Assembly: GCA_046757525.1 (NCBI GenBank)
Contig: JBHHYI010000155.1
Location: forward strand, 1-9,863
Source of the DNA: a bacterium
GTDB lineage: Bacteria > Zhuqueibacterota > Zhuqueibacteria > Oceanimicrobiales > Oceanimicrobiaceae
DNA length: 9,863 bases
Direction: 5' to 3'
This document shows, in pieces, positions 1 to 6,000 of the stretch. The stretch's first letter is position 1. Each line of letters begins with the position of its first letter. The position numbers are program-made.

Positions 1-3000
1 TTCCAAAATTTTATTTTGGAACGCAATTGGTAGAGAAGCTCTGCTTCGATAGGCATCTCGAACTCATCGAAGCAGAGCTTCTCGAGCAAGTGCGTGGGGT
101 TGTCCAGAAAGTCGAAAAAGAGCCTTGATTTGTCATTCCTGCGAATCAGTCGTCCGGCAGCCGCCGGATGACCGAAGCAGGAATCCTGAAAAATCAACGG
201 CTTATAGATTCCCGCTTTCGCGTTTTGGCGTCAACTTAAGGGGCCTCTAACCACCATATTGTCACCCCGAGCGGAGTCCGGCAACTGCCGGACGTAGTCG
301 AGGGGTCTGATTTAGGCACAAACCAGATTTCTCCCCGGCGGCTGCCGGGTCGAAATGACAGTTTAGGGGCTTAAGTTGACGCCTATGCGCTTTCGCGGGA
401 ATGACAGAAAAAGTGGGCTTTTTGGACAGCCCCGGACAAGAGCTGCGGCTTAGGTTGACGCCTGTGGGCAGCCACCGGATTCTCTGGTAGTAGAAACCGA
501 CTTTCTTGGAGAAAGTCGGTTTCTTGACGAGCATTGCCTAAGTTGACGCGCGCAGGAATGCGCCGGACGGGAATTTACTTGATGAGCAAACTTACCCGCC
601 GGTTGATGGGTAACCCGCGATGGGCCGGGGTTTCTTTGGCTCGCAGTCGGGTGTCGGCAAAGCCGACGGCCACAAAGCGGTTCGAGGCAAGACCGTTTTT
701 GATCAAATAGCGAATCACGCTGGCAGAACGCGCAGCGGAAAGCTCCCAATTGGAGGGGTAAAGCGTGTTTTTCGCAATGGGCACGGTGTCGGTGTGACCT
801 TCAACTTGAACGCGCCTTTGCAAGACTTCTTGTGTGTTTAGAATTTGGGCTAAAGCCGTTAAGACCGGGAAAGATTTTGGTTTCAAGGCTGCTTTGCCCG
901 AATCAAACAAAATGTTGTCCTGGAAATTGACCAAAAGACCATCGGGCGTGAGCTGCACATCCACATTTTCTTCGAGATGGTGCGCCTGAACCAGTTCCTT
1001 GAACTTTTTCTCCAGCACATGCAGGGGCATGGAGTTGCTGCTGTCAAAGTAGTCCATAATCGCTTCAAACTTGGCCTGATCGACCTGGGAGATGGCAAAA
1101 AACAAAACGAAGAAAGCCAGCAACAGCGTCACCATATCGCTGTAAGACAAAAGCCACGGCTGCTGGTCCTGAGCTTTTGCAGCAATGAACTGTTCCGGTA
1201 ATTTGATTTCCATTTGATTCAGGCAGCTTTTTTGAACTTCCGGCGTTTGTTCGAGAACTCGCGGCGCCCGGCTGTGGCGTTCACTTTTTTCCTGCTATTG
1301 GCGTTCAGGTAGGCCGCTAATTTGTCCCGCACGTAAACGTAATTGCGGTTGTCATAAAGCATCAGAAGCGTTTCAAGTTGCATGGTCTCGATGAGAAGAT
1401 TGTGTTCTGCCCGTTCTTTTATTTTTTCGGAGATGGGCGCAAACACCATGTTGGCCAGAGCCAAACCGTAAAAGGTCGTCGTCAGGGCAATCGCCAGGCC
1501 CGAGCCCACGTCTCCCGGTTGGCTCTTCAGGGTGATCAGCATGTTGATCAAGCCAATCAAGGTGCCAAGCATGCCAAAGGCCGGGGCGATTTTGGCCATG
1601 GTTCCGAAAAGCTGGTGTTGTTTCAGCTCCCGCGACATCTGCCAGCGCACCTGGTCCTGGAGTATTTCACGTGTTTCCTCTTTGGAATAGCCATTGGCGA
1701 GCATTTGAATCCCATCTCTTAATATCCAGAGATTGTCCAAACCATCCGCTTCCTTGACAAGTTTGTCCAGACCATCCCGCTGATAAATCCGGATCGAGGA
1801 AACCATTTTGTCAATGGCAGCAATAAAATCATGTGACCCAGAACGGAAAATGATGAAATAGGATCTAAAGGCGCGCAGAACTTCTCGCATGGGATAAGAC
1901 ACAACAATCGCAGCGACCGTTCCACCCATCACTATGGCCAGACCGCGCCAATTGAGAAAGATTTCGGGCGGCGCTTTGCCTGAAAGAATGCCATAGGTGA
2001 CCAGCACGATACCAAAGATAAAACCTAAGAACGTGAGCATGAGAGTGCCTTTTTATTATCAGGAAGTTAGTTTTTGTACCTCATAATCAATTCTTTGACT
2101 TCTTGTAAATCGGGATTGATTTTAAGCGCCCGTGCCCACGCCTTGACGGCTTCGTCGATGTCGCCATTCACATAATAGATGGAACCGCCCAGGGCATAAG
2201 CCGTTGCGGACGGCTTTTTTTGCAGTGAAGCCTGCAAGACTTTCAAAGCCTCGTTGTAGCGTTTTTCATAAAAAAGCTTTTGGGCTAAATTAATGTCGCT
2301 AATGATTTCGTCGGTGAGGTCTTCCTTCTCTTGAATTTCTTTGGTCATGGCGCTGTCCGGTGGCGCTTTGGTGTCCTGAGTCAGGACGGAATCGCCTTGC
2401 AGTACTTGCAAGTCACCATCCGGACCACGGGCCAGGTCGAGGGTCAGATTCGTGCTTTGCGGGTCCAGCAGCAACTCCACTTCGGTGTCATTTTGGCGAA
2501 ACTTAACCAAGAGGTAGGGATAATCCATCGTTTTCTTGAAGTTATTGTTTTGCACGCGTGTCACGACTTGCTTCTTAGTTAAGGAATCCGCAAGACTCGT
2601 TGGGGCACTTAAGTCGCTTTGCAGACGGCTTCCCTGACTACCAGCACATCCCAGGTACCCAAGCATTGGCACACAACTCAAGAAAACCAGATTAGGAAAA
2701 GTAAGATCGTTTTTTCTAAGAAATCGGCTCATGTTTTCTCCGCTGTTTTTTGGTCCACTAAGCTCTTACTAAAACGTATATTGCAGAAATTGAAACTCGT
2801 ACTTCAATCGGTTGACTCTTAACCGCACACTTTGATTGGTCGAAGTTATTGGCACGGAGTTAAAGTCGGAACCTAAGATCACGGAGATGCCAGCGGACAA
2901 AGAGAAATGCGTGTTGATGTCGCTGCGTAAACCCACGCCAATTCCGGTCAAGTCTGGCGTATTGATTGTGAAAAAACGGGTGAGCGAGAAATAGACTGAA

Positions 3001-6000
3001 AGCCAATCTCCAGCGGGATTGCTCTTGTTGGGCGCAATGGCCGAGATCAAAAATGAACGGACATTGAAAGAGACAGGCTGCGTAAATTGCGAGCTACTAT
3101 TGGCAAGACTGTAAAACGAAGGCTGCTGAAAAGAAGCACCGGCCAATTTAATGCCTTCTGAAATGAAGGAGAGACCAAGGCGCAATTCGTAGCGCAGGCG
3201 ACTGTTGGGCGAAACGTATTGCGAGAGTCCAAAATACACCGAGTGCTGAATGAGGCTGTTGTCCGAGCCGGCGGTCAGAAGGGAATCGGCCCCCGAATCA
3301 AAGTCCATTCGAAATATTTCGATGGTCGCATTGAGACTGGCGTGTAAGGAATTCACCTGCGGCATTTTGAGGCTCTTCTGGTAAGCAGAGTAGGATTTCG
3401 CCCACAAAACTTCGTTGGTACCGGTGCGGACCAGTTGCAGGTCCAGGTAGAGGGCTTTCCCTGGCATGTAAACCAAATTGCCTTCAAGAAAGGCATCCAC
3501 GCGCAGCCGGCGTCCTACCTTCCAGATTTCCTCGGGTGAGGGCAGGGCGTTCAGAATCGAAAACGTTGAGTCCGTGGAAGTGATCTTCAAGGTGTTTAAT
3601 TTAGGCAAGGATACGATGGCTGGCCTTTCCAGGGAGCGCAAAAGTTCCACCAGTCGGCCTTTAATGTGCTCACTCAAAGAAATCGGAATATGCTTGTTGT
3701 CTATTTCCAGGCGGTAAACGGCAATTCGTTTCAGATTGGCATCGATTTCGGCCAGATCCTGCGGTATCTGCTGAAAAATCTCTTCCAAAAGTATGAGAAT
3801 ATTTTCTTTGTTTTCAACGACATTCGGTTGAGCTGCAATTCTGCCAAAACTTGTGAGCAAGCCAACGAGCAAAAAAAACAGGGTTCGGAACCTTTTCATT
3901 TCTATTCCACACGAATTTGGTTAGCGGAGAATTCTATCAGATTTTTTAGCACGAAGAGAACGCATCAGAGTTCGGCGTGCCCGGGCGATTTCATCTTCAG
4001 AAAGGTCGTGGTGGGTCTCGAGGCTGGCCCGCACTAATTCGCCCAACCGGTCCGGCAGTGCCGCAATAATCTTGTTGACTTCCTGTTCATCCACCGTGAC
4101 CAGTGATTTTGCCAGGACTTCTCGATCCACGTCCAAAGCGAGTTCGTGAATTCTTTCATTGGGAAGCCCAAATAACTGGTGAAAGGTCATGAATTTTTTG
4201 CTCACTTTTTGAGCCAAATTCACGTCCTGAGTGTGCAGATAGTTAATGGTATCTTCCTGAGTGTCCTCATCGAGATGATCCATGACTTTTAACAGTGCGT
4301 CCACACCATTTGCCCGCACGTAGCGCATTTTCCCCAGCTTGCTGGCCCGTGCGGCCAATTGCCGCGTGATGTGTTGGTAGACATCCAGGGGAATGCGTTG
4401 AATATTGCCCATGGCCGCCAGCACTGCCTTTTTTTCATCTGCTTCCATTTTGCTCAATAATTCAGCAGCAAGATGAGGTTGTATTTGAGCTAATACGATG
4501 GCTTTGACTCCGGTTTTCAACGGTTTGAGCAAGTGCTGCAATTGATCCTCGCTCATCCGATGCAGAAAAGCCAGTGCATCCTCATCCCGGTCGTCTTGCC
4601 GCATCTTGAGCACCAAACGACGCAAATCTTCATCGAACTGTTTGAGCAGACGGGCTGAATTTTCTTTCACATCCGTCTCCTCGAGCTCTTCCATCTTCTC
4701 TCGAATCTTGTGCCCAGTTTCCGTGTCCAAATAGGGCGCGATGAGATCGATGAGCGGCTTAGAAATCGCTGCGAGCACCATGGCCGCGTCCTCGATGCCC
4801 GACTCAGCGCTCCGGTCAATCCACTGTTGAAAGACTTTTGCAGCCGCCGAGGGCGTGCCCACTATGGCATCAATGCTGGAAGACTGCAACCGCATCTCTT
4901 CTGTCACGTCGGTTTCTTTTGCGCTTCCGAGGCTGCTCTTCCCGGCGGTCTCAAGCTCGTCTTTGGGTAAATCATGACTGGGTGAAGGAACTGTGGAACG
5001 GTTCTTTTTGAGTTGGCGGATGACGGCCAGGGTCCCCAAAAAAAGAATGACGAGTAGAACGGCGGCGATGCCGGCAGCAAAAACATAAGGCCGCCAGTCG
5101 AAGCGGGCTTCTTTTGGAGTGGGTTCGGGCAATTTGGGGCTGTCAAGGCGGGCTTTGCGCGCTTTGAAAAAGTCGTCTTTTTGGGGAAATTCCAGCGCTT
5201 CCAGATGAACCTGATCTCCGCGCTGGGGCTGCAAATCCGCAATCAATGAAGCATATCTGCGAATAAAGGCCCAATCGTTGTCAGACAGACTTCGGTCTAC
5301 CAGAATATTGACGCGAATTCGGCGAACGTCGTAGCTGTTTTTTTGTACGTAGCCGCGCAAGACTGAGGGGTCGTCACTTTCGGCGCTTTGTTTGCCGATA
5401 TTTTCCGGAATGTAGGGTAAGCCGGGCAGACTGGTTAAGCGTTTGCTTAGCAAGGCCTCGGGCAACCTGGGCAGCACCACCCGGGGTTTTGACTTTTGCA
5501 ACTCCACATTGGCTTTGACGACAAATTTCGTTTCCGGGTAGTAGAGGAGAAGAGCATTTTGCAGATTCCAGGTTAGATTGGCTTCCATGGAATGCTCAAT
5601 CTCCGCAAGCGGTTTGTCCTCACTGACGGTTTGAGCCAGTAGGAGTTGTGCCGGTAAGCTAAAACAAAGCAGGAAGCTAAGTAACTTCATCGATTTCGCC
5701 GTCCTTTCCCACGCATTTACCTTGCATGTTCATAATCATCGGAAAAAATGGCAAATTCTAAATCGGTAATTGATTAAGAAAGGTTCATTTTTAGGTCACC
5801 TAAATCCTGACAAGAAAATTCACACAAAAATAGTGGACATAATGGTCTCAATTAATTATATTTCGTTGACTGTCAATTGGAGTGAATATTTAGACGAATA
5901 TAGTAGAGCGATTCACGTGCAACCTCCATCGTTCATGAGCTGACCCAACCAATGAAATACCGGCGGATTTGCAGAACCATCATGTTTTTGTTGGCGTGCG

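What a model noticed while it worked through the whole genome (the two positions that open the first line are those of the whole stretch)
575..5690. Five-gene module: natural FliF(RBM3)-FliG fusion with its own MotAB stator, TPR protein and outer-membrane barrel, apart [...]
C155 carries a compact operon (g03180-g03176) that is separate from the complete flagellar cluster on C1. g03180 (589 aa) is one polypeptide with a signal/TM helix, a periplasmic FliF-like ring-building domain, a second TM helix and a full FliG (N, M, C domains); it is followed by an outer-membrane beta-barrel protein with a TolB-N/LpoB/PelC-like periplasmic domain (g03179), a TPR protein (g03178) and MotA/MotB homologues (g03177, g03176; YtxD/YtxE-like, MotB plug and channel Asp kept). 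I read it as a non-flagellar, envelope-spanning machine in which a 5:2-type stator drives (or is anchored to) a minimal MS/C-ring-like rotor.
Evidence so far: Pfam: FliG_C 1.6e-14, FliG_M 5.6e-8, FliG_N 4.3e-7, YscJ_FliF_C 1.8e-3 on g03180. AF2 model from 28 homologues, mean pLDDT 74.9, helices 2-20 and 200-229; Foldseek: full-length FliG 3hjl E 1.1e-9, C-ring FliG 8wiw E 7e-9, and the periplasmic part on FliF RBM3/S-ring 6sd3, 6sd1, 8z5v (prob 1.0, TM to target 0.55-0.60, E 0.01-0.03). g03179 model pLDDT 80.8: TolB N-domain/LpoB/PelC plus OmpA/Ail/OmpW-like barrel. MotA/MotB 32-34% identical to the flagellar g00148/g00149; 'YSDMVTLLL' Asp kept. All five genes, same order, in 4 of 4 relatives examined, with unrelated flanking genes. 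Found in 6 of 46 phylum genomes sampled, G000 included (4/4 of own family); 47 protein clusters in the 5.8e9-protein [...]
(Added by a program. Inside this text positions count along the whole contig: contig position 1 is position 1 of the stretch shown here. "Call 12" and the like, gene names such as g00115 and contig names such as C1 are that model's own, and its searches are not shown. The text may have been shortened before it was handed on; [...] marks where a part breaks off. The agent that wrote the report below was given it as the finding of a first reader that could run no searches.)

Follow-up and report, generated by a model that had tools for sequence, protein, structure and literature searches.

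The report
Flagellar motor core without a flagellum
Five adjacent genes encode a natural fusion of the flagellar ring and rotor proteins (FliF and FliG), a private MotA/MotB ion motor and two predicted outer-membrane partners; the set also occurs in bacteria that lack flagellar genes, so it is likely a stand-alone ion-driven motor that would work on the outer membrane.

Summary
Confirmed, with corrections. The 589-aa protein is colinear with the last 60% of FliF (RBM3, short collar, one TM helix, FliG-binding tail) joined to FliG. Its first hydrophobic stretch is a likely cleaved signal peptide; FliG-N is present but about 26 residues short, and the quoted Pfam FliG_N hit lies on FliG-M. The five genes keep their order amid unrelated flanks, and 7 of 21 carrier genomes show no flagellar FliF or FliG. 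The family spans several phyla (176 clusters). The collar keeps an LPGLP motif that aligns on FliF's rod-binding torque loop; the FliM site and the usual rotor-stator charges are lost on both sides. A specific TPR domain recurs in three architectures, each time tied to a different outer-membrane barrel or lipid anchor. Best reading: a switchless, probably sodium-driven rotor that passes force to an outer-membrane partner (0.5); ring formation and rotation are untested. Ten literature searches found no description. This scan noted the system before on other DNA.

The parts
3921..5690 (-). FliF(RBM3-TM2-C tail)-FliG fusion, 589 aa
5634..5690 (-). likely cleaved signal peptide, residues 1-19 (Ala19-Gln20)
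   Evidence: conservation; hydropathy; cleavage inferred
5184..5627 (-). RBM3-like periplasmic domain with short collar insert, residues 22-169
   Evidence: Z 13.5 to FliF 228-438; E 4e-9 and 7e-9 to FliF chains with profile A3
5415..5429 (-). LPGLP motif, residues 88-92, aligned on the start of FliF's rod-binding collar loop
   Evidence: L/M-P-G in 133 of 135; aligns on E. coli FliF 305-310; loop role from PMC11528121 passage
5004..5093 (-). single TM helix (FliF TM2 equivalent), residues 200-229
4815..4922 (-). FliF C-terminal FliG-binding helices, residues 257-292
   Evidence: aligns on FliF C-terminus incl. conserved Trp
4596..4805 (-). shortened FliG N domain, residues 296-365
3930..4583 (-). 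FliG M and C domains, residues 370-587; EHPQ replaced by LKTG; torque helix R548, A555, S556
2769..3899 (-). predicted outer-membrane protein: signal, LpoB/TolB-N/PelC-like domain (36-174), small OmpA/OprF-like barrel (184-376), C-terminal Phe
2067..2732 (-). predicted lipoprotein (Cys29) with C-terminal module-specific TPR domain (about 138-221)
1219..2040 (-). MotA/PomA-like stator A subunit; T160, T188, T189 kept; rotor-contact Arg and Glu replaced (Q87, V95)
575..1213 (-). MotB-like stator B subunit: Asp26, plug, OmpA-type wall-binding domain

Best explanation
The five genes likely form a stand-alone, switchless rotary motor in which a private MotA/MotB stator would turn a predicted ring of the FliF-FliG fusion protein, and that ring would pass force to an outer-membrane partner instead of to a flagellar rod. 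Shown by sequence and models: the fusion is colinear with FliF RBM3-TM2-tail plus FliG; it lacks RBM1/RBM2 (the export-gate housing) and the FliM site; it keeps the collar loop motif; the stator keeps its ion site; the module occurs without flagellar genes. Inferred steps: (1) after signal cleavage, subunits polymerise through RBM3 above and FliG M-C below the inner membrane into an open ring; (2) wall-anchored MotA5B2 units conduct ions, probably sodium; (3) MotA pushes FliG-C through a changed contact that also insulates this motor from the flagellar one in cells with both; (4) the LPGLP loop binds an outer-membrane-tethered partner, the TPR domain or the barrel's periplasmic domain; (5) the work is done on a swappable outer-membrane barrel, most likely to assemble, release or move surface material.
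For: Colinearity with E. coli FliF about 223-550 then FliG 4-324 and across the junction of the engineered FliF-FliG fusion 8z4d; RBM3 fold Z 13.5. Engineered fusions form rings (PMC11481574, passages). [quoted passage not shown] All five genes together in 26 of 29 loci, duplicates included; two were cut by contig ends and one was a flagellar FliF hit; no flanking gene family in more than 4 of 16 records. All 21 of 167 phylum genomes with the barrel also have the fusion; 7 of these 21 show no flagellar FliF or FliG. MotA and MotB follow the fusion in 18 of 18 loci of a clade about 19% identical and in both short-form loci. MotA keeps the full cytoplasmic part and MotB the plug plus OmpA domain that PMC12505986 (passages) lists as flagellar-stator traits. 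T160, T188, T189 invariant in 13 of 13 match the sodium-site threonines of PMC10374538 (passages). The TPR tail of the distant clade's 995-aa protein finds the module TPR in 22 of 167 genomes at E 1e-11 or better; the next TPR in this genome scores 0.003.
Against: The charges said to make torque are gone: FliG D288/D289 are Ala/Ser in 46 of 46 close homologues, K264 and R297 are lost; the MotA Arg is kept in 0 of 19 and the Glu in 2 of 19, against 12 of 12 flagellar MotAs. Joint loss fits a rewired contact, but equally no contact. Only R281 is kept (K/R in 127 of 135). The model has pTM 0.42 and is a monomer. The collar insert is about half of FliF's (median 52 residues) and poorly modelled; this genome's own flagellar FliF lacks the PG motif, so it is not universal among FliFs. 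L193 at the PomA A190 position looks proton-type. G122 has the fusion without the module MotA, barrel or TPR. No expression or phenotype data.
Confidence: 0.5

Rival explanations
1. The ring is a static scaffold and the stator works beside it, as an ion channel or envelope sensor (Zorya-like) or as a Tol-Pal-like tether acting on the TPR and barrel directly; FliG only helps the ring assemble.
For: Loss of the canonical charges on both sides; no switch, rod or filament genes in the module; both torque-helix acids kept in only 14 of 135.
Against: FliG-C and R281 are kept across 135 divergent members; the stator stays beside the fusion in all three architectures while the outer-membrane gene changes; MotA keeps its expanded cytoplasmic part.
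Confidence: 0.22
2. It is a surface-motility engine: the rotor moves an outer-membrane adhesin or turns a surface fibre, parallel to Agl-Glt or Gld gliding (those systems are recalled, not tested). This is the best reading with cell movement as the output.
For: Small barrel plus TPR lipoprotein plus ion motor recalls the gliding outer-membrane complex (weak GltE hit, E 0.002); in the distant clade it follows DUF4402 subunit, chaperone-like and usher-like genes.
Against: No adhesin, track or TonB-like gene travels with the window type; no FliM site for steering; the short form sits in a polysaccharide export locus.
Confidence: 0.18
3. It is an accessory or degenerate part of the flagellar motor (spare stator plus spare rotor).
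For: 14 of 21 carriers, this genome included, also have flagellar FliF or FliG; the stator is of flagellar type.
Against: Present in 94-99% complete genomes with no flagellar markers; intact and 42-76% conserved; fused FliG domains do not nest among 12 distinct flagellar FliGs (SH-aLRT 99).
Confidence: 0.05

Closest known systems
Flagellar rotor-stator core (FliF MS ring, FliG, MotA5B2/PomA5B2)
   Same: RBM3, TM2, FliF tail, FliG N/M/C in order; collar loop motif; MotA fold with ion-site threonines; MotB Asp, plug and wall-binding domain.
   Different: One polypeptide; signal peptide in place of TM1, RBM1 and RBM2; short collar and short FliG-N; no EHPQ; charge pairs lost; no FliM/FliN, export gate, rod or filament; found without flagella.
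Engineered FliF-FliG fusions (Vibrio FliFG, PDB 8z4d; PMC11481574)
   Same: Colinear across the FliF tail-FliG-N junction.
   Different: Those are laboratory constructs of full FliF; this is natural, lacks the N-terminal 40% of FliF and has its own stator.
Non-flagellar 5:2 ion motors (ExbBD-TonB, TolQR-TolA, AglRQS, ZorAB)
   Same: An inner-membrane ion motor encoded with outer-membrane partners; TolB-N/LpoB-like periplasmic domain.
   Different: Stator is MotAB-type with plug and OmpA domain; the candidate transducer is a FliF-FliG ring protein, not a TonB-like rod.
Injectisome SctJ/SctD rings and SpoIIIAG
   Same: Ring-building motif used outside the flagellum.
   Different: The injectisome kept the export gate and lost the motor (established knowledge); this module kept the motor and lost the gate. 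Fold is nearer FliF RBM3 (Z 13.5) than EscJ (Z 8.7).

Membership tests
Flagellar motor | FliF with TM1, RBM1 and RBM2 housing the export gate | tested here: not met
   alignment starts at FliF about 223; PF01514 finds only the C1 FliF
Flagellar motor | RBM3 S-ring domain, TM2 and FliG-binding tail | tested here: met
Flagellar motor | FliG N, M and C domains | tested here: met
   M and C clear; N present but about 26 residues short
Flagellar motor | FliM-binding EHPQ motif, with FliM/FliN available | tested here: not met
   EHPQ in 0 of 135; no FliM in 4 of 4 non-flagellated carriers tested
Flagellar motor | Rotor-stator charge pairs (MotA R90/E98 with FliG D289/R281) | tested here: not met
   pairs from PMC6680979 passages
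Flagellar motor | Export gate, rod and filament in the same genome | tested here: not met
   no FlhA or flagellin in G004, G009, G012, G137; rod genes not searched
Flagellar motor | Ring assembly and ion-driven rotation | not testable with these tools
   monomer models only
Flagellar-type (FIT) stator | MotB Asp, plug and OmpA-type domain; MotA with expanded cytoplasmic part | tested here: met
   by sequence; traits from PMC12505986 passages; MotA was not folded
Sodium-type stator | Three ion-site threonines and a small residue at PomA A190 | tested here: inconclusive
   T160/T188/T189 kept, L193 is not small; PomA numbers mapped by recalled motif context, the PomA alignment was not printed
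TonB/Tol/Agl-type transducer | ExbB/TolQ-type A subunit and TonB/TolA-like partner | tested here: not met
   best families are MotP/PomA/MotA (E 1e-43 to 1e-34) against TolQ 3e-4; no TonB-like gene among the five
Chaperone-usher pathway (distant clade neighbours only) | Usher and PapD-type chaperone homology | tested here: inconclusive
   DUF4402 E 1e-12 and PapD_N E 0.016; no PDB match; EcpC E 0.07, EcpB E 0.22

The most novel reading that the evidence does not exclude
An old, widespread second lineage of the flagellar motor that kept rotor and stator but no secretion system: a plug-in rotary engine with a TPR coupling that different phyla attach to different outer-membrane machines (a small LpoB-barrel here, a fibre-assembly usher-like protein in another clade, a PorV-like barrel in a polysaccharide locus). 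It is the mirror image of the injectisome and a living model of a motor module before or apart from the flagellum.
Probability: 0.4. Interest if true: 0.93.

Novelty: categorically new. Interest (0 to 1): 0.8.

Why it matters
FliG and the FliF S-ring are treated as flagellum-only, and MotAB-type stators as a flagellar clade (PMC12505986, passages). A three-gene rotor-stator core working elsewhere would be the smallest natural version of this motor, would test whether torque needs the textbook charge pairs, a C-ring or a rod, and would bear on whether the motor and the secretion system have separate histories. It also warns that genes annotated fliG/motA/motB (several members are so named) do not imply swimming.

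Tried and rejected
Complex prediction of TPR (134-221) with the fusion's periplasmic domain and MotB's periplasmic domain: no support, score 0.00, no verdict either way. No RNA holder was listed. Plasmid collection gave only two ordinary FliG matches. Profile search of the word-indexed protein set with the deep alignment returned only the close family. Usher and chaperone identity of the distant clade's neighbours could not be shown by sequence. Promoter and terminator scans were near chance (8 vs 5.0, 14 vs 8.1). The weak G021 match lies just upstream of that genome's flagellar fliG, has no module genes nearby and was dropped as flagellar FliF. A link to the three Bdellovibrio motAB pairs could not be checked: the 2011 paper is not held and passages of four others describe no such module. 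Trees are unrooted, have long branches and a narrow flagellar sample (11 genomes of this phylum plus E. coli), so no order of events is claimed.
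Full report
Observation. The five ORFs are at the stated places on the minus strand, 5 to 36 bases apart. Pfam values, folds and identities to the flagellar MotA/MotB on C1 were reproduced. This genome has a separate flagellar cluster with its own FliF, FliG, FliM and flagellins. Close homologues are labelled KSB1 or Calditrichaeota by their sources.

Anatomy of the fusion. A profile of 135 full-length homologues (A3) matches FliF chains at E 4e-9 and 7e-9, FliG-N at 5e-5, and runs across the junction of the engineered FliF-FliG fusion. Aligned to E. coli proteins, residues about 29-292 follow FliF about 223-550 and 296-584 follow FliG 4-324, with only a few residues between them. 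The model's residues 22-169 match FliF RBM3 at Z 13.5, rmsd 2.1-2.6 over about 100 residues; EscJ scores 8.7. RBM1 and RBM2, which hold the export gate (PMC11739650, passages), are absent. The collar insert is about 52 residues against 111 in Salmonella FliF, yet holds L/M-P-G in 133 of 135, aligned on E. coli FliF PGGVPG. [quoted passage not shown] Against: the insert is poorly modelled, a short motif can steer its own alignment, and this genome's flagellar FliF lacks the motif.

Rotor-stator contact. FliG R281 is kept (K/R in 44 of 46 close and 127 of 135 distant members); D288 and D289 are Ala and Ser in 46 of 46; K264 and R297 are lost; in the wide family both acids are kept in 14 and neither in 52 of 135. 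EHPQ occurs in 0 of 135. In MotA the Arg is kept in 0 of 19 and the Glu in 2 of 19 module proteins, against 12 of 12 flagellar MotAs. The ion site is intact: MotB Asp26 and MotA T160, T188, T189, the threonines that PMC10374538 (passages) ties to sodium, while L193 looks proton-type. PomA numbers were mapped by recalled motif context. Joint loss may mean a rewired contact or none.

Partners. The 376-aa protein models as an LpoB/PelC/TolB-N-like domain (Z 10.4) plus a small OmpA/OprF-like barrel (Z 13.8) ending in Phe. The 221-aa protein has a lipobox Cys29 and a C-terminal TPR domain.

Distribution and independence from flagella. All five genes occur in order in 26 of 29 loci, duplicates included; two were cut by contig ends and one was a flagellar FliF hit. 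Among 16 records (two the same place) no flanking family recurs in more than 4. The fusion was found in 11 of 18 family genomes. The barrel was found in 21 of 167 phylum genomes, all 21 with the fusion; in G005 the barrel is in two frames. Seven of the 21 show no flagellar FliF or FliG; G004 (99%), G009 (97%), G012 (94%) and G137 (96%) also lack FlhA, flagellin and FliM, and the module MotA is their only full-length MotA. These are draft genomes. A counter-case: G122 (93%) has the fusion without the partners. The exhaustive search gave 176 clusters at E 1e-30 or better; most of the 150 listed have a signal, one TM helix near 200-250 and 560-780 aa. Five of 30 looked up carried an organism name: Fibrobacterales, KSB1, Deltaproteobacteria, Saccharospirillaceae, Bacteroidota; Atlas look-alike clusters add Balneolota, Bdellovibrionota, Myxococcota and Elusimicrobiota as leads.

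Three architectures. (a) Window type: fusion, LpoB-barrel, TPR lipoprotein, MotA, MotB. (b) A clade about 19% identical (18 metagenome loci, some duplicates): MotA and a long MotB with SPOR domains follow in 18 of 18, a TPR lipoprotein was called in 16, and a 995-aa protein with a TPR tail lies just upstream in 17, after DUF4402 and chaperone-like genes; its usher identity is not shown. Earlier scan notes call this clade Balneolaceae. (c) A 480-aa short form, apparently without FliG-N, in G028 and G123, beside MotA, MotB, Wzc-type and XrtA-type ATPase genes and a PorV-like barrel with a TPR tail; neither genome shows flagellin, FliF or FlhA (93% and 73% complete). The TPR is the same subfamily throughout: the tail in (b) finds the module TPR in 22 of 167 genomes at E 1e-11 or better and the G028 tail at 1e-4. 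One usher-like protein without the module (G100) had no hit to the TPR profile (one case). So the constant core is fusion, MotA, MotB and an outer-membrane-tethered TPR; the barrel changes.

Trees. Module MotAs of (a) and (b) form one side of a branch (95/96); 12 distinct flagellar FliG M-C domains form one side against all fused ones (99). Long branches, a narrow flagellar sample and no root limit this to: not a recent copy of the local flagellar genes.

Mechanism. Most likely (0.5) a switchless ion-driven rotor whose collar loop passes force to an outer-membrane partner; ring, contact, rotation and output are all inferred. Rivals: static scaffold with an uncoupled stator (0.22), surface motility (0.18), flagellar accessory (0.05).

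Literature. Ten full-text searches listed no description of a natural stand-alone FliF-FliG fusion with its own stator; the fusion papers listed concern engineered or mutant flagellar proteins, judged from titles and abstract starts. I saw passages of PMC10374538, PMC12505986, PMC12827227, PMC11271337, PMC11481574, PMC11739650, PMC13626733, PMC6680979, PMC11323537, PMC11528121 and bioRxiv 2025.02.19.638989; no whole text and no supplements. The supplementary sequence tables of PMC12505986 might include these MotAB pairs. Most subscription papers are not held, including the 2011 Bdellovibrio motAB paper (nothing seen).

Verdict. Real, conserved, widespread and independent of flagella; built from known parts in an arrangement no described system has. 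Interest 0.8.

Noticed in passing
L053:3021-14360 (G028:C23) and L055:6470-15601 (G123:C194): Short form of the fusion (about 480 aa, LPGLP kept in G028, FliG-N apparently absent) with MotA and MotB inside a polysaccharide export locus: Wzc-type proteins, XrtA-type ATPase, PorV-like barrel with TPR tail; in G028 a sugar transferase lies between motA and motB. Its MotA keeps the Arg but not the Glu.
   Followed up: partly
L067:1733-13053 and L065-L082: Distant clade: up to four small secreted genes (the last DUF4402), a chaperone-like gene and a 995-aa usher-like protein with TPR tail precede the fusion; MotB is extended by SPOR domains.
   Followed up: partly
L064:1519-3393 (G122:C155): Fusion gene with no barrel, TPR or module MotA found nearby or elsewhere in a 93% complete genome.
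   Followed up: partly
window 221-387 and 8164-8330: A 167-base intergenic repeat with internal palindromes, 96% identical copies; 82 matches on 72 contigs, 47 nearly full length; probably a small mobile or REP-like element.
   Followed up: partly
window 5952-8021 (+) and 8345-9466 (-): Flanks: LolA-like protein plus FtsX/LolE-type permease, and an ABC-2 permease; not shared with relatives' loci.
   Followed up: partly
G000:C1:124560-157631 and C83:13639-14208: The flagellar fliM lies on another contig, outside the main cluster; the flagellar MotA also keeps the three sodium-type threonines.
   Followed up: no
G008 and G076: These carriers have flagellar FliF and FliG but no flagellin match (G008 also no FlhA): partial flagellar loss or assembly gaps.
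   Followed up: no
L093:10057-13983 (G100:C331): Usher-like and chaperone-like genes without the motor module and without a TPR-profile hit.
   Followed up: partly
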